A stretch of DNA of 64,000 bases from the NCBI RefSeq assembly GCF_009914755.1, contig NC_060925.1. The stretch is one strand, 5' to 3'. Made by a program: the position numbers and the translations under genes. Below the pieces are notes generated by a model. That model was not told the origin of the DNA and searched no databases. It was given only the letters and a program-made list of their open reading frames with translations. How positions within the stretch are numbered: the first letter of the stretch is position 1; every line of letters starts with the position of its first letter. This document shows positions 1,149 to 57,121 of the stretch, in pieces. This DNA is from the human T2T-CHM13v2.0 reference genome, Homo sapiens.

Positions 1149-1573
<425 letters not shown>

Positions 1574-2261
1574 TCAACCCACAGGGTTCCTGGGCTGGGC
1601 TCCCTCAAAAAATGCTCTGAGCAGCTTTCACTCATGACCCCCATGCACAGCGAGAGCTAGGGCCATGGAAATTCCGTGCCTGGACCAACCTCGTCTCGTG
1701 CAGCGTGGAAGAGGCGCGTAGCCCAGTGCTTGGGTTGGGAACCTCGTCATCGTCTCCTTCACGGTGATGAACAGCTACTGAGAAAGAAAAAAATGTCTTC
1801 ACGCAGTTTCTTGGAATAGTAGCTGCACCCGCGATTAATAGAGTCTGTTTCGGTAGAAGTTTTTTAGAGAAAGGAAAACTGTCACCAGCTCCATTTTGTC
1901 AGGTTCATTTCTGAGGAATCTCTTGACCACCGCGGCTTCCAAGTGGGATCGATGTTGGACTTGCAAAAGGGGAAAATTATTTTTGACTCATAAACTGGAA
2001 TGGAAGCCAAGGAAGAAACTCGGTTTGTGGCCTGCTGTTGCTAAATACAAAAATTGATTATTTTATGGAAGAAGAGCCATGGCCAGGTCAGCTGTTTTTC
2101 CCTCATAAAATCATTCAGCGACCCGATAGGAAACTGCAACGCCTGTGAGTCGTTTGCAGAGTGGTGCAGCTGTGAGAATTCTCCCTGGAAGGGCTGCCCG
2201 ACCCCTCTCCTGAGCCTCTGAAACTCGGAAGCGAGGCCAGGATGGTGATAAAGGAGGAGTG

Positions 2262-2280
2262 TGGCGCCCTCTGGCGAGAG
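2262..2280 (-). promoter_or_regulatory. CTCF motif
   Basis: Reverse complement CTCTCGCCAGAGGGCGCCA; one mismatch to the CC(A/G)CCAG(A/G)GGGCGC core. Confidence 0.55.
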
Positions 2281-3095
2281 TGGGGCTGAGTCCCTCCCAG
2301 GAGCCCAGCCTGGGTGTCCCCCTGCTGTAAAGACCCCACGGCGCACAGCCTAAGGCTCAGAGCTTTGCACGGAGTCTGCCCCTTTGGGCAACATGGAGCT
2401 GATGTGGTTGCATGTTGGAAGACCTCATTTAGATTCCAGCCAAATTAGGAGAGAGGTGCTTATCCCAGCTGGAGATGCACAGGCGGGCAAAGGGCTGAGA
2501 GCAACCCAAAGCTGGAAGGCCAACGGGGCTTAGGCCTCCTGGCCCCAGGTGCTGCCCCGGGAAAAGAGGCCGTAACGCCATCCTACCCAGCCATCGCTGC
2601 AGCAGCAGGACCTGTCTCCAGGTTAAGACTGAGCAGACATCAGGCAGCCTCCAGGTTGGCCCAAGCATCTCTCATCTGGAATAAAAGTACTTGTCAAACA
2701 TCATTATCCAGAATCTCAGGGAAAATAAAAATGAGTTCTAAGGCTTGTGAAAGAGATGGTCTTGGGACAACCCAACACCAGGACTTTTCCTCTGGGTCTG
2801 GTGGAAATATTTTGAAAGGCCAAAGAAGAGGGTTCTGTCCTTCCCAGGACCCGACTCAAGGCCTAAAGAAAGTTGTAGGGAGTTCTGGACACGGCACTAA
2901 TGCTTCAAGAAATCTCTCCAAGCTCGGACTTACTTGCCTGATAATTCCAGGTCTCAGACTGAGCTTCTCATCCAAGGCTGGGTGATTTGATTCCCATAAA
3001 TCACATCTATCGCTCTGTAGCATTGATAAGGGGCACTCTAGGCGTGAACCTGGAGCCACTGGGAATCAAGAAGGAATTCCTGTCTGTGCCATATG

Positions 3096-3331
3096 TGTGG
3101 TTCAGCGTGGGGGGGGGTTCCTTCCGAACTTTCTGCAGTTTCCTGGAGGGATGAGACACGGCCTCCATTGGGGATTGGGCAAGAATGACCTCCCTGTGCC
3201 CTGGCGCTCACACCTGGAGGTTGCTGGCCCACCCAGCCCCTGCAGAGGGTTTGAAGGTCCATGAGTCAGGTCTTGGAAGGCCCAGGGGGGAGCCTGAGAA
3301 AGAAATTCAGAAGATTCCATCATGACGTCAT
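3096..3331. promoter_or_regulatory. Candidate enhancer motif cluster (RUNX, AP-1, CRE)
   Basis: TGTGGTT 3096-3102, TGAGTCA 3262-3268 and the perfect palindrome ATGACGTCAT 3322-3331 in unique DNA. Confidence 0.4.
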
Positions 3332-3649
3332 CAATCCCCCTGAAGATCTACAGGTTGCATTTACTCCCTGGCTTCAACGCACCACATTTTAGAGAGGTTT
3401 TTTGTTTTTTGTTTTCTTGAAGTACAAGAACACCAGTGATGAAACTTGAAAGCATCCTGTACTCATGGTGGATCAGGAAAATAAGAGTTTTCTTAGACTC
3501 AGAGTCTTGGTGGGAGTGTTGGTGGGGAGGGTCTGCCCTCTGAACGGGGACATGGTGAGGGGGACTGCACTGAAGCTGTGTCCCCAACTCCTTCCTCCAC
3601 CGATGCTTCCGTTCCTCATCTCCAAAATGCCTACCGCTCTCACCCTTAT

Positions 3650-5480
<1,831 letters not shown>

Positions 5481-5662
5481 TTCTACCTCTATTCACCTTT
5501 TAGGAGTCCTAAGAATTAGTCAGTCCTGTTTGACAAATAATACCAGTATAACTGGATCTTTCCAGAAAAAGCCTGAACAAGTCCTACAGTTAAATTTCCA
5601 TTTTAGCAGGGGGAGTTGGTTGACTGGCTGCTCTGGTTAGCTGAAGGTAATAATAATTTTTA

Positions 5663-5917
<255 letters not shown>

Positions 5918-6007
5918 TTTGAAGGTACCAAAGAGGGGCTGAGAGAAAATAGCAAAGGTGGGGACAGTGCTCCAGGTGGTGTAGCCAGAAAACCCCTCTC
6001 TGCAGAA

Positions 6008-6500
6008 GTGTATCCGTTTTCTCTTGCTGTCAATTACCAATAACCTCAAACTCAGCAGTTTCAAAGAACATCCGCTTCAGAGCTCAGCATTCTAGGGGTC
6101 AGAAATCTGGGTGGGCTCAACTGGGTTCTGTGGTCAGGGTCTCACATGGACAAGATCAAGGTGTCGGCTGGATCAGGCTCCCCTCTGGAGCCTCGGAGAA
6201 AGAATCCACTTCCAAGCTCATTCCAGGTGCTGACAGAATCCAGCTTCCTGCAGTTGTCAGACCCAGGTCCCTGCCCCCTTGCTGGCCATCAGCCAGGGTT
6301 GCCCTCAGCTACTCAGGAGCACTCTCCTTCCTCCATCCTCAAAGCAGCAGTGGCACCTCGGGTCTGTCTCTCGCTTTGAATTTCTCCGGCTTCCTCCTCT
6401 GCACCAGCCAAAAACTGCTCTTTGCTTCACAGTCTTGTGCAATTAGCTTTGGCCAGCAGGATGATCTCCGTCTTCCAGTCTTCAGGTTAACCATGTCATA
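6008..6500 (-). mobile_element. MaLR LTR (old MLT1 subfamily)
   Basis: TGTATCCGTTTTCTCTTGCTG...GGTCAGAAATCTGGG...CAAGGTGTCGGCTGG, typical antisense MLT1. Confidence 0.7.
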
Positions 6501-6685
6501 AGCCATAATGCAGCCCAGGAGTGACGGCACAGTCACAGGCTCCAGGATAAGGACATAAAATGGGCCGGGCGGGGAGGGAATGTTTAGAATCTTGCCAAGC
6601 ACAGAAGGTGTCCCTGAGACCTGGAGCAGGAGGAGGCAATGAGGGCGTGGCCATGGGAGGAGAAACAGCCCAGACAGAGGGGTCA

Positions 6686-11944
<5,259 letters not shown>

Positions 11945-12081
11945 AACATCAGCTTTTAAAACACGTGTATTTGTTCGTTCTTCCTCAAAGTACACCACAT
12001 ATTGCCTGGGATTGTGGCTGGCTGGAGTTTGGATAGTCGCTGAACTCTAGAACTGACGGGAAACTTAGAAAAGGTACGGTG

Positions 12082-12235
12082 CAGAGGTTGCAAACCGGCT
12101 GCCCAGAGGCCAACTTGGCAATCAGATGTGTTTGTGTGGCCTATACAGGATGTCCTGAAGGTGTGAGCCAACGTTTCAGAATTTGGTAGCTTTCACAAAC
12201 ATTTTTTTAAAAATCAGCCATCTGGCAGCCCAGGC
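12082..12235. mobile_element. hAT-Charlie MITE fragment (MER102/MER58-like)
   Basis: CAGAGGTTGCAAACCGGCTGCCC...ATCTGGCAGCCC termini. Confidence 0.45.
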
Positions 12236-12656
12236 CCGCACCCCTCCTGGCGATGGTGGGATGTGCAGGGTGGAGGAGCCTCTTCTGCAGGTCCCCTTGG
12301 TGCTGCCACCCACACAGAGCCCCAATGCCCTAATATCTGCCCTCTCCCCTGCCTGCACCACTCCCCAAAATATGCCTTTTAGAGATAAACCCTGGGGAGG
12401 TTCCCTAATTTTCATGGGGCAAATTGTGCACGCTGACCATGAAACCTGTGCTTCTTCCCACTCTGTGGACGTCCCCTCCCTCTACAGTGACCAACTCAGT
12501 CTGGTTTGCTTAGTCTCTGGGTTTCCGTACAGAAAGTCCTGTAGCCCTGGAACCCTCCCAGTCCCAGGCAAACCGGGATGGTTGGCCACACTACCGCTCA
12601 CTTCCTATCCTTCTCCCCCACAAAAAAATTAAATAAGATAAAACAAAATGTAATTT

Positions 12657-12946
12657 AGGCAGGGTGTGGTGGCTCACACCTGTAATCCCCGCACTTTGGG
12701 AGGCCGAGGTAAGCAGATCACTTGAAGCCAGGAGTTCAAGACCAGCCTGACCAACATGGCGAAACCCCCTTCCTACTAAAACTTCAAAAGTTAGCCAGGC
12801 GTGGTGGCGCACCCCTGTAATCCCAGCTACTCAGGAGGCACAAGAATCACTTGAATGCAGGAGGCACAGTCTGTAGTGAGCCGAGATTACATCGCTGTAC
12901 TCCAGCCTGGACAACAGAGCAAGACTCTGTCTAAAACAAAAAAAAA
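12657..12946 (+). mobile_element. AluS
   Basis: Dimeric Alu consensus. Confidence 0.95.
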
Positions 12947-15035
12947 GCAATTTAATTAAAAAGCAGAGTTTTATTGAACTAAGATTTCATCTCCTCTCTG
13001 GCCTGCTTGCTGGGCTAGACATGGAAGCTGCCAGCGCCATCATCTCTGATTTTTTCGTGGTGGAAGAGGTGAGTTGTGCCGTCCTTCACCACAGTGACCT
13101 CCTGGGGCCCAGCGCCTGACTCTGTGTCTGTGATGGAGGACACCTCACATAGGATGGGCCCCAAGTCCCAGCCGACAGCAGCACACACACGCCTTGCTGC
13201 CAAATGGCAGCGCGAGCCTCTGTTTGTGATTAGGTGGCAGACTACACTCGGAACCCAGCAAGCCGATGATGAAAGCTGTTAAAAGAACATTGTTATATGA
13301 CTTTTCATAGTTTCCCAAGTAAATATTACACTCACTGCTGCTTGAATTACTAATGCTTTGGAAGTGGAGGCCGAAATCCATTCCCAAACAGACTCCCTTT
13401 TTTTTCCCTGTCACCTAGGCGCTCGGCATTGTTGTCGAATTGTTTTCCCGGGCTCGCCCGTCCTCACAGCTCAGTACATTCCCTCCGAGTGATCTCTTGG
13501 CACCTCTGAAGCCCGAGTTTGCACAGCCACCTCATTTCCCAGCTCCTCCACGCCAGCTCCCTCTGCAGCAGGCAGCTTGCCGCAGGCAGGTGACCCAAAG
13601 GTCCTCAGATAGAACTGCAGAAAAGGGAGCAAATGAAAGGAAGGCAGCCACGGCTCTGCCAAGCCTCTCCAAAGAGACCCGGCTTTGCACAGGCAACTTC
13701 AGGTGGAAGGAAAGGACCCTGCTGGAAACGTCATCTCTGGGCCCGCACTGCGGCATTTAACCTCTTCCTTAGGCTGCCCGGAGAGACAACTGGAGAAAGT
13801 GCCTTGGACCCAAACAGCTCTTGGGTCCTCACTGTTTTTATTACTGCTTATAAAAGCTAGTAAACAGATGGTTTGGGTTAGAGAAAATATGCAGTCAGGG
13901 TTATTAAAAAGAAAAAAAGCAAGCAAGCAGAAGAATGAGGAGAGGAAAGGAAAAAGCAAGAAGGCTTGTATAACAGCGAGGACGCTGACAGCTCGTCAAT
14001 CCAAACACCCCTGGTCCTGCGTGTGTCTCTCCTGGGCTGGCGTCCTTACCAAGCTGTCTGTCCCAAAAGAAGCCCCCAAGAAGTCCAATCTCACGTGGAA
14101 AACGCATCCCCTCCTCTCACCAGCCCCCTTCCTATATTCTGTCCCACACATACTCGTGTCATGCTGGTAAGATGAGTTTGGTGGTACCTGGAGCCAGAGG
14201 AAGTGAATGAAGGTTGAGCCAAGAAGAGGCTGTGGATGGCCACAGAGGTAGACAGGGAGGGAAGACAAGAAGCTTACAGGTCTCTCTGGAGAAAGAGGCA
14301 CCACGGCTATGAATATCCTGCAAGAATAGAGAGGGCAACCAGGGCGTGGGGGGCTCGGTTACGTACCTGGCAGTGACCTTGGCCAGAACGAGGCTGCCGG
14401 CTCACACCAGTCCTAAGAGGCCACAGGATGGATGGGCTTGGGATTGAACCACAGGACTAAGATGCTTGAGCAGGGTGGGGGCAAAGATGCTTCCTCCACC
14501 CTCCAGAGACCGCCCCATCCCTCACCCCCAGCAGCCCCCAAGGAGAGAGACCGCGTGCAATATTCTGTGCAAGACATCAGGGGAAGAGAGGACCGGCAGG
14601 GACATGGTCCTCGTCAACCTGTATTGTGGTCCTATCCAGCTCCTGAGGGAACTTGTCCCACATCAGAGAGGAAGAAGCCACAACAGGCCAAAAGAAGCTG
14701 CGTGTGACCCCTAAGCATCTAGAAGAAACTTAAGACAGCAAGGGCTGTGTGCTTGGAGCCTTGGGGCAAGGACCCCACAAGAGGTGGGCAGAGGTTTCTG
14801 TCTCTTTCACTTCAGCTAAAGCAACAAAGACAGAATCAGAACGAAGATGGGGACACCAAGGAGCCACAAAGGAGCCCACAGGGCAGTCACGAACTGCAGT
14901 CCTTCCAGGTCAGCCACGGGCAGAGGGCTGGTTCAAGGCGGTGGACTCGAAGTGTGGTCCCCAGACCTGCTCCTGGTCGACTGATGGTTTGCCGCTAGTC
15001 TGCCACAAAGTAAGTACAGAAATCAAGAGTTAGTT

Positions 15036-17533
<2,498 letters not shown>

Positions 17534-17624
17534 GAATGTGCCTTCTACTTCCTTTATTCTCTCCTCCCCGGAGCTGGAGGTGAGGAGGGCAACTCAAGCC
17601 TAAAAATCCCACTGGCTTCAACCC

Positions 17625-18030
17625 AGGAGAGAACAGAGTGTATGATTCCATTTATATAAAGCACAAAAACAAGCAAAAGTAGCCAGTGAGGAGATGGGAT
17701 GATCTGTGCAGCAAACGAACACGACACACGCTTACCTATGTAACAAACCTATACATCCTGCACATGTATCCCAGAACTTAAAAGTTACAAAAGAAACAGA
17801 AAACAAATAAACTAACAAGCAACCAGTGCTATGAGAAGTTAGAATGGCACTCACTTTGGGGGTACAGTGACAAGGACTGGGGAGTAAGGAGGACTCCTGG
17901 GGGTTGGCTGTGTGCCTACCCTTGATCTGGGCGTGTTCTGTTTGCAAAAATTGCAGTTTGTGAAGGGTATATGCTTATGGTTTGTACACTTTGTACATGG
18001 ATATCAAACTTCAATAAGAAGTTTTTAAAA
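17625..18030 (+). mobile_element. L1ME-like 3' fragment containing a short L1P-type 3' end (about 17695-17815)
   Basis: TATGATTCCATTTATATAAAG; TTACCTATGTAACAAACCT...CACATGTATCCCAGAACTTAAAA. Confidence 0.75.
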
Positions 18031-18304
18031 TCTGTGGGCTCTAACCACAACGCAAAAATAAAATATTAGCACCGAGGTCTTGTGAGACTCTTCTGCTGTG
18101 TTAAAAGCGCTCCGTCGTAGGACCACGGGAAAACGAGCAATGTCCTTGCAAGAGAAGCCGGGATTTGATTTTTGGGTCACTGTTTTCCCAGGTGGTTGCA
18201 GGGCAGGGGGACGGTTGACTCATTTTCCCTGCTCCCCCCACCCCGCCCTCATCCCCACCATTTGGGGCTGGATGGGGGCCAAGGGCCGGGAGATTTGGGC
18301 TGTT

Positions 18305-18951
18305 GCCTTGGTGATGCTTAAATATTGGCTTCAAGTTGTGATGGTAAAATAAATACGCAAGAGGCTTGGGGAGCTCCAACCGGTCCTGCCCGCTGTTCCC
18401 AGGTCGCCATTCAAAACCACAAAGGTGGCTCAAGTACTGTGAAGCCTGGAACTCTCACCTGGGTGGACAGGGGACAGGTTAGGAGCAGGTTGTGTCCTGG
18501 ATGCTCAGGGATCCAGGCTCGCTGCAGACGTCCACTCTGAATAGACGCTCCTGAAATTCTAGCTCAGTTTTCTGGAAATGTAGCGGCCAGGAATGCAAAT
18601 CCTGAGCATGGGGAAGTTTGCTCAACCTGTAAAGGCTGGATGGGCACAGAGGGAGTTCGAGAGCTACAATTCTGCTGTCAGGAGACGTGCTTGCCTTCAG
18701 AAGGCAAGGGCAAAGAAAACAGAGCTGTGTCTAGAGGCCAGGAGCCAGGCCACATTCAGCCCCTAACCTGCCCCCTGTCCCCTGTCCCCCCCGCCAGGTG
18801 AGAGTTCCAGGCTTCACAATACTTAAGCCACTTTCGCAGCTTTGAATGGGAATCTGGGAACAGCCGGCAGGACTGGTTGGAGCTCCCCAAGCCTCTTGCT
18901 TATTTATTTTACCATCACAACTTGAAGCCAACAAGTAAGCATCACCAAGGC
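18305..18951. repeat. Long non-Alu inverted repeat: arms 18305-18483 and 18762-18951, spacer about 278 bp
   Basis: Hand alignment gives 16 mismatches over the first 158 bp (about 90%), with perfect blocks of 31, 25 and 25 bp. Confidence 0.95.
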
Positions 18952-19977
18952 TTAAAAGATGCCTCAGGCCCATCCTGGAACCAGGAAGCAGAGGAGGTGA
19001 GATTCCCAACAGAGCCCGAGAAGACGAGGACCCCGGTGCAGGAAGCAGAGCAGAGCTTTGCCCAAGATAAACTCTCAGTTGTGGTCCTGCCTCTCTTGCC
19101 AAGATGCCGTTTGACTTGGAGGTGTATAGCAAGTTCTTAACTCCTCCGGGCCTCAGTTTCCCCATCTGCAAATCATTCTTTTTATAGACGAAGGCAGGAG
19201 AGAATAGGACTCCAGCCCTGGGAACACACCCTCCCAGGCGTATCCCAGCGCTCCCTGGCCAGGCAGCTGTGGCAGATGTGCAGAACATCTTTTCGGGTTT
19301 ACAACTCGGCTGCCCTCAGGGAAGTGGAAACTGTTGGCCTCACCCATTCCCAAAGCATCCAAATCATAAACCGCCACTAAAGTCTTGGCTCAGAAGGTCT
19401 GATTGTCCTGCTGTGTGTGCAGGGGAGGGGAGAACACACAACACTGGGCAGGGGTGGGGTGGGGACAGCTCCCTCCGGGCCAAGTTGAAGCACTAGGCAG
19501 AGCTGGGAGGGGCTCTGAGTGTTTGACAACCAGCATGAGGTCACAGCCATCCTCCTCCTGGGGTGTGATGTGTCAGCAGGCAGCGATTGGCCTGTGGGCC
19601 ATGATTCACAGCGGCAAGCATCCCTATTGAAGGCCTCGGCCCTCGGCCCTGCAGCTGCCCTTCACAGCAGACTCCTCACTTTCCCTCCGCCTCCGTCCTT
19701 CAAGGGCTCCAGCCTCAGCCGCCAGCCAGCAGGGAAGGGTGACACCCAGCAGCGGCAGGAGCTGGGGGCCCCTGGATACCCCGGGATGGTCCCCTCCAGG
19801 GCCACAGGCTGCTGCTCTGAAAAGTGACAGATCTATCCTGACGGTCCCTCTTCCTGTGTCCACACCTCCTACCTCCCACCCCTGCAGGAGGCAGCACAAG
19901 GATCCTAGTGGTTCTTTATTGAGCACCTACTATGTGCTGTGTATCAAAGGCTTTGGGTGATAACTGTCCTTTGAGAG

Positions 19978-20414
19978 GGTGTGTTCATTTCCTGGGGCGG
20001 CCATTTCAAGTCATCATAAACTGTGTGGCTTAAAAGAGCAGAAATGAGTTCTTTCACAGCTCAGGAGTCGAGAAGTCCAAAATCAAGATATCAGTGGGCC
20101 ACAATCCCTCTGAAGCCTTTAAGAAAGAATCCTTCCTGGCCTCTTCCAGCTTCTGGGGGCTCCAGGCGTTCCCCGGCTGGTGGCCACATCACCCCACTCT
20201 CTGTCTCTGTCTTCCCACAGCCGTCTCCCCTCTGTGAATGCCTCCATGTCTCCTCTTCTTATAAGCACACCAGCTGTTGGATATAGGGCCCACCCTACAT
20301 CCAGGATGATGTCATATCAGAATCCTTAATTAATTACCTCTGCAAAGACCCTATTTCCAAATAAGGTCAAATTCTGAGGGTCTGGGTGGACATGAATCAT
20401 GGGGGCCCACTACA
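19978..20414 (-). mobile_element. MLT1C-like solo LTR
   Basis: AAGTCCAAAATCAAG...CCTCTTCCAGCTTCTGG...GCAAAGACCCTATTTCCAAATAAGGTC. Confidence 0.85.
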
Positions 20415-20429
20415 GAGGGGCAGTATCAG

Positions 20430-20550
20430 TGCCCCCTTCGTACACATGAGAAAACTGGGGACCAGTGATGTGAAGTGCTTTGCACGGAGTCCCTCAGCTG
20501 GGAAGTGGTAGAGTCAGGATTTGAACCCAAGTCACCTGGCCCAGGACCCA
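20430..20550. mobile_element. MIR fragment
   Basis: ATGAGAAAACTGGGG...GTGGTAGAGTCAGGATTTGAACCCAAGTC core. Confidence 0.65.
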
Positions 20551-20556
20551 CCACTA

Positions 20557-22980
<2,424 letters not shown>

Positions 22981-23214: not shown

Positions 23215-23775
23215 CTCTCCTTGTCCTGACCTCCCTTCAATCCAGGTGACTGCCTCACCCCCTGCTTTCAGGGGCAGGCACATGACCCAAGTCATGCAAA
23301 TCAGAGTCATCATGATCAGTTTCTGAAGGGAGCTTGTGACTCAATCCCAGCCCATGAGAACACCCTCAGGACATCTGCTGAATCTGCAGGATAGGAGGCT
23401 GGAGTCGCTGGCAGCCACCTTTACTGCCACCCAGGGCACAGTTTCTGAGGGGAGCTTATGACTCAATCCCAGCCCATGAGAACACCCTCAGGACATCTGC
23501 TGAATCTGCAGGATAGGAGGCTGGAGTCGCTGGCAGCCACCTTTACTGCCACCCAGAGCACACCCACTTGAGAATGAGACCCACACGGAGGAAAGCAGAG
23601 ACAAAGGGGAGGCCCATTCTTGTCAATATCACCTGAGCTCCTGGATCCACCTCTGCCTGAAGGCAGAACTAGCCTTAGAGGCTGTTTACTTTTGAAAACC
23701 ATTAACACCTTCTGTACTTAAGTTAGTTGGAACTGGATTTCTGTAATTTGCAACTAAAAGAGACCTGATTAATAT
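23215..23775 (+). mobile_element. Old ERVL-class LTR (LTR16/LTR33-like)
   Basis: CATGACCCAAGTC..AATCAGAG; GCTGGCAGCCACCTT; CTGGATCCACCTCTGCCTGAAG; TTTCTGTAATTTGCAACTAAAAGAGACCTGATTAATA end. Confidence 0.6.
23317..23562 (+). repeat. Direct tandem duplication, 2 x 122 bp
   Basis: Copies start at 23317 and 23439; only 3 substitutions between them. Confidence 0.97.
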
Positions 23776-51982: not shown

Positions 51983-52745
<763 letters not shown>

Positions 52746-56456: not shown

Positions 56457-56932
56457 TCACCAGCCAGATAATGTACAAATGTCCTTAAGAGAACCACAGG
56501 CACCGTCTTCTCTACAACACAAGGAGAACTTGGGTTCTAAACTCCTGCAGGTGCTTCACGCAGGGGCAAACCCAGCTTAAGCTGCAGGGACTCCAGCAAT
56601 GGGCCTCTCCTGGTCAAATGTTTTTGCCAAACTTGCAAAGGGGAAGTGGTTAAATATGAACCCTTTCCATTTTGACCTCCCACTGTGCGTTGCCCCTCCC
56701 GTCAGGGATCATTACAATGGATGCAGGTGTTTGGAATCTGATGAGAAGGTGGGCTAAGTTTGGTGGTGAATATCTATGCGGTTTGTCGTCAAGTCTGTGT
56801 ATGTAAAATTCTTATAGAAAAGGCTTCTGTAGCCAGGTGAGGTAGTGCAGGCCTGTAGTCTTAGCTACTCAAGAAGCTGAGGCAGGAAGATTGCTTGAGG
56901 CCAGAGTTCAAGGCTACAGTGAGCTATGATCA

Positions 56933-57121
<189 letters not shown>

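What the first reader, a model, noticed from the sequence alone, without database searches (positions are those of the whole stretch)
18305..18951. Non-TE inverted duplication: an exon-like unit faces its own antisense copy
Seen: the arms are about 90% identical (16 mismatches in 158 bp), about 278 bp apart, with no flanking TSD and no repeat family I recognise. The right arm (+) spans almost exactly a splice unit: branch point CCCTAAC (A at 18766), pyrimidine tract, CAG (AG at 18796-97), a 137-nt segment with stops in all three frames (18798-18934), then the donor CAA|GTAAGC. Homology ends about 15 nt past that donor. The left copy keeps the branch point and acceptor on the minus strand, but its donor reads TTAAGC. 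Inference: a transcript through here would fold into a roughly 170-bp duplex that sequesters the exon and both splice sites. That would be a structure-gated exon, an ADAR editing-complementary sequence, or an endo-siRNA hairpin.
Basis: partly seen in the sequence, partly recalled or inferred. Interest (0 to 1): 0.8.

Follow-up and report, generated by a model that had tools for sequence, protein, structure and literature searches.

The report
Old single-locus inverted duplication, intergenic
A stretch of about 200 bases of human chromosome 1 sits next to a decayed back-to-front copy of itself; it is real and not a mobile element, but it looks like an old copying accident rather than a working exon or RNA switch.

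Summary
The inverted repeat is real. The arms are 18305-18505 and 18740-18951 (201 and 212 nt), with 24 substitutions and two indels. The core is 158 nt at 90% identity, and the spacer is 234 nt. In the T2T genome the arm matches only itself and its partner. The same search recovered Alus, and an old repeat family at 71-78% identity, so it would have found a transposon family. There is no target-site duplication and no Rfam family match.

Either strand would fold into a duplex of about 190 bp if it were transcribed. However, no gene is annotated in the window.

The exon-like signals are weak evidence:
- 36 equal-or-better acceptor-plus-donor units occur in this gene-free 64 kb.
- About 2% of random 212-nt stretches hold such a unit.

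Of 154 inverted pairs in the window, 150 are Alu-Alu, so hairpin potential is common here.

My best reading (about 0.75) is a neutral local inverted duplication. It was probably made by a replication template switch or fold-back repair, roughly 25-65 million years ago using substitution rates I recall, and has decayed since.

The function as a gated exon, editing substrate or siRNA hairpin is untested and unlikely (about 5-7%). Interest is low.

The parts
18305..18505 (.). Left arm of the inverted duplication (201 nt)
   Evidence: the repeat finder I1 and I2; global alignment to the reverse complement of 18740-18951.
18506..18739 (.). Spacer (234 nt). Unique sequence with no significant internal symmetry.
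   Evidence: The two halves of the loop aligned in inverted orientation score z = 1.3 against 300 shuffles. Only a 19-nt local palindrome is present, at 18690-18708. There is no other genome match.
18740..18951 (.). Right arm of the inverted duplication (212 nt)
   Evidence: In the genome search it matches itself at 100% and the left arm at 90%, and nothing else.
18767..18789 (+). 7-nt tandem repeat CCTGTCC x3.3 inside the right arm. The left arm has one unit fewer, which accounts for the 7-nt indel between the arms.
   Evidence: Tandem Repeats Finder; indel columns 18771-18777. Slippage as the cause is an inference.
18760..18792 (-). Canonical G-quadruplex motif (four G runs).
   Evidence: Regex scan. 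The window holds 18 such motifs, and 3 lie at 18234-18792.
18264..18290 (+). G-quadruplex motif 15 nt outside the left edge of the duplication. It is a possible fork-stalling trigger (inference only).
   Evidence: Regex scan.
18798..18934 (+). Exon-like segment (137 nt) between an acceptor-like CAG and a donor-like CAA|GTAAGC. I read it as a pseudo-exon.
   Evidence: Sequence; stops in all three frames; site scores and window-wide counts; no annotated gene (hub annotation).

Best explanation
This is a local, single-locus inverted duplication in intergenic DNA. It is a by-product of replication or repair, not a gene part or a mobile element.

Inferred origin: one stretch of about 200 bp was copied in reverse-complement orientation about 230-270 bp from its source. 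The likely route is a polymerase that switched to the opposite or nascent strand and then switched back. This is the template-switch scheme, four-point model type '1-4-3-2', which creates an inverted repeat. Fold-back priming during break repair would give the same result. G-quadruplex motifs at the left edge and in the inner right arm are plausible fork-stalling triggers.

Since then the two arms have drifted apart without constraint: 24 substitutions, slippage in a 7-nt repeat, and one cluster of changes. Arm divergence is K2P 0.11-0.13. With recalled substitution rates of 1.0-2.2e-9 per site per year, that dates the event to roughly 25-65 million years ago.

What is shown: the repeat exists, it is single-locus, it has no TSD, and it has folding potential. 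What is inferred: the mechanism, the age, the neutrality, and which arm is the copy (unknown).

With a spacer this long and 10-12% mismatch, the DNA should be a stable, weak cruciform or hairpin former.
For: The arm matches only itself and its partner in the 3.1-Gb genome: 2 of 2 matches. The 901-nt region at E<=10 gives 1 first-look candidate, itself.

The same tool gave thousands of candidates for repeats:
- 5,047 to 14,245 candidates for three Alu-bearing stretches.
- 1,328 candidates, with the 40 scored at 71-78% identity, for the old repeat at 19980-20314.

Other points:
- No TSD.
- No Rfam family at the repeat and no tRNA.
- Substitutions look unconstrained: 13 transitions to 11 transversions, 6 of 16 core mismatches at CpG.
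- There is no strand preference for G:U-compatible changes: 3 versus 8, P = 0.23. The two RNA strands fold equally well, -417.7 and -416.4 kcal/mol.
- The 7-nt indel equals one unit of a 7-nt tandem repeat.
- No gene is annotated in the window (hub annotation).

Published mechanism: template switching creates reverse-complement copies of nearby sequence, and type 1-4-3-2 creates an inverted repeat in 31% of high-confidence human-chimp events (PMC5453318, passages read). Over 6,000 hairpins arose this way in primates (PMC10710096, abstract and passages read).
Against: - Published short template-switch events are much shorter: 28 and up to 83 bases in the examples I read, against about 200 nt here. 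This would be an unusually long one, or a different repair route.
- No microhomology is visible at the junctions (and reading), though after this much decay none may be recoverable.
- Mismatches are clustered. Eight of 16 lie in 18403-18424 (variance/mean 2.25, P = 0.006; maximum in 22 nt, P = 0.011). Simple independent drift does not predict this. It needs a later multi-base event, or uneven constraint or conversion.
- The arm holding a fairly good exon-like unit is a coincidence of about 2%.
- Neutrality and age rest on no outgroup sequence. No other primate genome was available.
Confidence: 0.75

Rival explanations
1. An unannotated transcript crosses the locus and the duplex of about 190 bp has a function. 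It could hide a cryptic exon, serve as an ADAR editing substrate, or be diced into endo-siRNAs.
For: - Either strand folds into a near-continuous duplex.
- The right arm carries a branch-point-like CTAAC, an acceptor ranked 242 of 9752, and a donor ranked 102 of 6542.
- Only about 1-2% of random 212-nt stretches hold such a unit.
- At 88-90% identity it is the best-paired of the non-Alu inverted pairs in the window.
Against: - No gene is annotated in the window, and the nearest genes are tens of kb away (hub annotation).
- There is no CpG island: observed/expected 0.16-0.36 over 18200-18999.
- 36 equal-or-better exon-like units occur in the same gene-free window.
- The left copy has lost the donor.
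- There is no Rfam match.
- The arms have no other homologue in the genome. An hpRNA-type trans target is therefore missing, whereas hpRNAs typically show substantial complementarity to their targets (PMC10317233, passages read).
- There is no strand bias in wobble-compatible changes.
- In a genome-wide prediction, non-repetitive dsRNAs were rarely edited: 4,597 of about half a million (PMC11838218, passages and sections 9-10 read).
Confidence: 0.07
2. It is the relic of a very low-copy DNA transposon or foldback element with long terminal inverted repeats. The arms would be its TIRs and the spacer its internal region.
For: The architecture resembles a non-autonomous element with long TIRs: about 200-nt inverted ends, a short non-coding middle, and 647 nt in total.
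Against: - No target-site duplication of any length from 4 to 9 nt at the ends.
- No second copy anywhere in the genome, although the search finds families at 71-78% identity.
- The ends (GCCTTGG...) do not match the terminal motifs of hAT, Tc1/mariner or piggyBac as I recall them. This rests on memory and was not tested against a library.
- Arms only 10-13% diverged would imply a young family, whose other copies should be easy to find.
Confidence: 0.06
3. The repeat is much older than its divergence suggests. It is kept similar by gene conversion between the arms, or by selection on a DNA-level role such as a paired protein-binding site, an enhancer part, or a cruciform.
For: - Identity is uneven along the arms: 97% in 18335-18380 against 63-77% elsewhere.
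- Mismatches are clustered, as patchy conversion or patchy constraint would produce.
- A RefSeq 'enhancer' lies about 700 nt to the right, at 19647-20198 (hub annotation).
Against: - Arms of about 200 nt are near the lower limit for efficient mammalian gene conversion. This is recalled (minimal processing segment of roughly 130-230 bp) and was not tested.
- The annotated enhancer does not overlap the repeat.
- The clustering can equally come from one multi-base mutation plus CpG decay (6 of 16 mismatches at CpG).
- The long spacer makes cruciform extrusion unlikely. The review PMC7999016 (passages read) states that longer spacers and lower similarity reduce structure formation.
Confidence: 0.08

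Closest known systems
Template-switch mutations (four-point model; Loytynoja & Goldman 2017, PMC5453318; Monttinen et al. 2023, PMC10710096)
   Same: A reverse-complement copy of nearby sequence placed next to its source makes a new inverted repeat and hairpin potential in one step. No transposon is involved, there is no TSD, and the result is single-locus.
   Different: The events I read about are tens of bases long (28 and up to 83 nt; miRNA-like stems of 30-55). Here the arms are about 200 nt and the spacer 234 nt. The ancestral state needed to call such an event is not available to me.
Inverted Alu pairs (IRAlus), the main source of human dsRNA and A-to-I editing
   Same: Two arms of about 200-300 nt at 75-90% identity within a few hundred bases. 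The predicted intramolecular duplex is the same kind of structure.
   Different: Alu pairs arise from two independent insertions of a family with about a million copies. Of 154 inverted pairs in this window, 150 are Alu-Alu. This one has no family. It also lies outside any annotated transcript, whereas editing is mostly seen in genes.
Hairpin RNA (hpRNA) endo-siRNA loci of Drosophila, and plant miRNA genes born by inverted duplication
   Same: A long inverted duplication of non-TE sequence with a loop of a few hundred bases.
   Different: Those loci are transcribed, diced, and complementary to a target gene elsewhere (PMC10317233). Here there is no other copy of the arm sequence in the genome and no evidence of transcription.
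MITE or foldback DNA transposons with long terminal inverted repeats
   Same: Overall shape: long inverted ends around a short non-coding middle.
   Different: No TSD and no other copies.
Unstable genomic palindromes (PATRRs, close-spaced inverted Alus)
   Same: Inverted repeat able to form a hairpin in single-stranded DNA (-231 kcal/mol).
   Different: Those have little or no spacer and near-identical, often AT-rich arms. This one has a 234-nt spacer, 10-12% mismatch and about 50-58% GC, so it should be stable (principles from PMC7999016).

Membership tests
DNA transposon / MITE with terminal inverted repeats | Target-site duplication flanking the element | tested here: not met
   No shared direct k-mer of 7 nt or more within 30 nt of the two ends. 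One 6-mer is shared, but it is not at the junctions.
DNA transposon / MITE with terminal inverted repeats | Multiple dispersed copies in the genome | tested here: not met
   Only the locus itself is found. Positive controls gave 1,328 to 14,245 candidates.
DNA transposon / MITE with terminal inverted repeats | Match to a curated repeat library (Dfam/Repbase) | not testable with these tools
   No repeat library was available. The hub's list of masked stretches names only the longest and gives no families.
Template-switch mutation (four-point model) | Inserted segment is the reverse complement of sequence nearby on the same chromosome | tested here: met
   The arms are 88-90% reverse-complementary and 234-331 nt apart.
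Template-switch mutation (four-point model) | Ancestral or outgroup sequence lacks the copy, and the change is explained by one switch-and-return | not testable with these tools
   No other primate genome was available.
Cassette exon / structure-gated exon | Acceptor, branch point and donor signals | tested here: inconclusive
   The signals are present and in the top 1.6-2.5% of sites. But 36 equal-or-better units exist in the gene-free window, and the chance per 212-nt stretch is 0.01-0.02. The scoring matrix was recalled from memory.
Cassette exon / structure-gated exon | Lies in a transcript, with observed splice junctions | not testable with these tools
   The hub annotation lists no gene in the window. 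No RNA-seq data were available.
ADAR substrate / editing-complementary duplex | Long intramolecular duplex | tested here: met
   Predicted duplex of about 190 bp on either strand, with z of -25.3 and -23.1. This is an in-silico result only.
ADAR substrate / editing-complementary duplex | Transcribed, with A-to-I sites in the arms | not testable with these tools
   No expression or editing data were available.
hpRNA / endo-siRNA hairpin | Arms complementary to a target gene elsewhere | tested here: not met
   No other genomic match to the arms. The feature is taken from PMC10317233.
Known RNA families (Rfam 15, including miRNA precursors) | Covariance-model match | tested here: not met
   An E<=1 scan of 17000-20500 gave only Alu-related hits at 17236-17517, plus a 16-bit HOTTIP_3 hit (E 0.061, gathering score 50) at 18846-19022.

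The most novel reading that the evidence does not exclude
A primate-specific, unannotated transcript runs through the locus. Its non-Alu duplex of about 190 bp, born in one mutational step, makes it an ADAR or Dicer substrate and masks a cryptic 137-nt exon. That would be a rare human example of a structure-gated exon or long-hairpin RNA locus created by a long template switch.
Probability: 0.05. Interest if true: 0.55.

Novelty: new member of a known kind. Interest (0 to 1): 0.15.

Why it matters
As it stands, it matters little. It is one more example of how replication or repair errors write inverted repeats into non-coding DNA.

It has modest value as a clean case. It is long, about 200 nt, which is several times the size of the published short template-switch events I read. 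It is single-locus and free of transposons. Comparison with other primates could therefore show the ancestral state, the switch points and the decay rate of such a structure.

If it proved to be transcribed, it would be one of the few non-repeat long hairpins in the human transcriptome.

Tried and rejected
- **Transposon family.** Genome-wide search with the arm and with 18200-19100 found nothing but the locus. I checked that the search can see repeats using three masked stretches, which all turned out to be Alu. I also used a true old repeat, found by self-comparison of the Alu-masked window. A fourth control, 18952-22250, was swamped by an Alu at about 21147-21440 and told me nothing about the flank.
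- **Longer palindrome.** Inverted alignment of the two loop halves (z = 1.3) and of the 200-nt outer flanks (z = 2.3; shuffles reached higher scores) gave nothing significant. Only one near-diagonal 8-mer lies outside the arms.
- **TSD or junction microhomology.** None found.
- **Known RNA.** Rfam and tRNA scan found nothing at the repeat.
- **Strand of a selected RNA, from G:U-compatible mismatches.** The count was 3 against 8, not significant.
- **Local density of such repeats.** In a 264-kb sample (the window plus 200 kb fetched), 6 inverted pairs had arms of at least 120 nt, identity of at least 85% and a spacer of at most 1 kb. Five are Alu and one is this repeat. The sample is too small, and biased by including the window, so it gives no rate.
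- **Literature.** A search for SPSB1 + SLC25A33 + intergenic found 4 papers, none relevant judging by title and abstract. A search for a 22-base string from the arm found 0 papers. Neither search shows that the locus is undescribed elsewhere.

Full report
**What is there**

Reading 18100-19200 and running repeat finder confirm an inverted repeat. The core arms are 18305-18462 and 18794-18951: 158 nt, 90% complementary, 16 mismatches. A second collinear block lies at 18465-18505 / 18740-18780 (41 nt, 80%).

Gapped alignment joins these into arms of 201 nt (18305-18505) and 212 nt (18740-18951), separated by 234 nt. The arms differ by 24 substitutions (13 transitions, 11 transversions) and two indels of 4 and 7 nt. 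K2P distance is 0.131 over the full arms and 0.110 over the core.

The symmetry stops at the arm ends:
- The loop halves and the outer flanks show no significant inverted similarity.
- Of 150 inverted 8-mer matches in 17600-19650, 90 fall in the one diagonal bin of the arms. Only one near-diagonal 8-mer lies outside them.

**Is it a repeat family?**

The right arm searched against the whole 3.1-Gb genome gives two matches, itself and the left arm. The 901-nt region 18200-19100 at E<=10 gives one first-look candidate, itself. Nothing else in the 64-kb window resembles it.

The tool warns that it skips very common words and scores only the best candidates, so I ran controls:
- Three masked stretches, all Alu by comparison with the Alu at 22309-22654, gave 10,079, 5,047 and 14,245 candidates.
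- An old interspersed repeat at 19980-20314 gave 1,328 candidates, with the 40 scored at 71-78% identity. I found it because it has a 71%-identical copy at 51984-52316.

The search therefore sees both young and old families, and the arms belong to none it can see. A family of a handful of copies below about 70% identity cannot be excluded, and no repeat library was available.

There is no target-site duplication, no Rfam family at the repeat, and no tRNA-like gene.

**How unusual is it?**

Hairpin potential as such is common here. The repeat finder lists 166 inverted pairs of at least 80 nt within 3 kb in the window. By BLAST there are 154, of which:
- 150 are Alu-Alu;
- 3 involve 56830-56992 paired with Alus;
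- 1 is this repeat.

In a 264-kb sample (the window plus 200 kb from 8.50-8.70 Mb), 6 pairs have arms of at least 120 nt, identity of at least 85% and a spacer of at most 1 kb. Five are Alu, with 271-280 copies in the sample, and one is this repeat. What is unusual is the non-repeat origin, not the structure.

A genome-wide prediction (Andrews & Bass preprint, PMC11838218; passages and sections 9 and 10 read) likewise reports the following:
- Over 90% of predicted dsRNAs are repetitive.
- About half a million are non-repetitive, of which 4,597 are edited.
- The class suspected of immune relevance is longer than 300 bp and more than 96% paired. This repeat meets neither threshold.

**The exon reading**

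I scored all GT and AG sites in the window with a simple log-odds matrix. The frequencies are recalled from memory, so the scores are rough.
- The donor at 18935 ranks 102 of 6542.
- The acceptor at 18796 ranks 242 of 9752.
- 36 acceptors on the two strands have an equal-or-better donor 50-300 nt downstream. None of them lies in an annotated gene, because the window has none (hub annotation).
- The chance that a random 212-nt stretch of the window wholly contains such a unit is 0.0099 per strand and 0.020 on either strand. With slightly relaxed thresholds it is 0.043 and 0.085.

So the coincidence is mild and was noticed after the fact.

Other points weaken the exon reading further:
- The arm ends (18740 and 18951) do not track the 'splice unit'.
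- The AG site reads even better as a donor, CAG|GTGAGA, scoring 6.86.
- The 'pyrimidine tract' is a C-rich 7-nt tandem repeat, CCTGTCC x3.3 at 18767-18789. It is the complement of a G-quadruplex motif at 18760-18792.

I conclude that the unit is most likely a pseudo-exon.

**Folding**

If transcribed, either strand forms a near-continuous duplex of about 190 bp. Energies are -417.7 kcal/mol (+ strand, z -25.3) and -416.4 kcal/mol (- strand, z -23.1). Single-stranded DNA folds at -231.2 kcal/mol.

There is no sign that one strand's RNA has been favoured. Transitions that keep a G:U pair number 3 on the + strand and 8 on the - strand (P = 0.23).

There is no CpG island around the repeat.

An hpRNA-like role would need a complementary target elsewhere. 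hpRNAs typically show substantial complementarity to target genes (PMC10317233, passages read). None exists in this genome.

**Most likely origin and history**

The simplest account is one local event that copied about 200 bp in reverse complement next to its source.

Template switching during replication does exactly this. In the four-point model, type 1-4-3-2 creates an inverted repeat and made up 31% of high-confidence human-chimp events (PMC5453318, passages read). The process is credited with over 6,000 new hairpins in primates (PMC10710096, abstract and passages read).

The events I read about are much shorter, 28 to 83 bases. This would be a long example, or a product of fold-back or microhomology-mediated break-induced replication. 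The latter was discussed for microinversions flanked by inverted repeats (PMC8755829, passages read).

Three of the window's 18 G-quadruplex motifs lie at 18234-18792. One is 15 nt outside the left edge and one is in the inner right arm. Fork stalling there is a plausible trigger, but this is a post-hoc inference.

The subsequent history looks like decay:
- 6 of 16 core mismatches are at CpG.
- Non-CpG divergence is 10 of 147 sites.
- The 7-nt indel is one unit of the tandem repeat.

With recalled rates of 1.0-2.2e-9 per site per year, K = 0.11-0.13 gives about 25-66 million years. This is an inference without outgroup support.

**What does not fit neatly**

Mismatches are clustered. Eight of 16 lie in 18403-18424 (variance/mean 2.25, P = 0.006; maximum in 22 nt, P = 0.011). 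Identity ranges from 97% to 63% along the arms.

A later multi-base mutation, patchy gene conversion or uneven constraint could each cause this. I cannot tell which. I also cannot tell which arm is the copy.

**DNA-level behaviour**

A review of palindrome instability states that risk rises with arm length and similarity and falls with spacer length (PMC7999016, passages read). With a 234-nt spacer and 10-12% mismatch, this repeat should be stable.

**Verdict**

The functional readings are untested and unlikely.

It is a new instance of a known kind of mutation product and of low interest, unless transcription is found. The decisive data (other primate genomes, a repeat library, RNA-seq, editing and small-RNA tracks) were not available here. 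Supplements of the papers cited were not read.

Noticed in passing
window 19980-20314 and 51984-52316: Two copies of an old interspersed repeat, 71% identical over 338 nt. The family has at least 1,328 candidate copies genome-wide at 71-78% identity. The first copy overlaps the right part of the RefSeq 'enhancer' 19647-20198.
   Followed up: partly
window 23317-23562: Tandem duplication of a unit of about 123 nt (23317-23440 and 23439-23562), 97.6% identical.
   Followed up: no
window 56830-56992: A stretch that pairs in inverted orientation with neighbouring Alus at 73-77% identity, but was not hit by the Alu probe 22309-22654. It is probably a diverged Alu-related monomer.
   Followed up: no
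window 18234-18792: Three of the window's 18 G-quadruplex motifs cluster here: 18234-18256 (-), 18264-18290 (+) and 18760-18792 (-). They bracket the left edge of the duplication and sit in the inner right arm.
   Followed up: partly
window 18403-18424 versus 18832-18853: Eight of the 16 core mismatches between the arms fall in 22 nt (P about 0.01). In the left arm this patch contains a small perfect hairpin, CCAC-AAAG-GTGG, at 18417-18428, which the right arm lacks. A later short multi-base event may have caused this.
   Followed up: partly
window 17236-17517: An Alu just left of the region gives sub-threshold Rfam hits to Metazoa_SRP, mir-1268 and mir-3135, as is usual for Alu sequence.
   Followed up: no
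whole window: 84 Alu-like intervals cover 24,146 of 64,000 bases. All 20 of the longest masked stretches named by the hub contain Alu sequence.
   Followed up: yes
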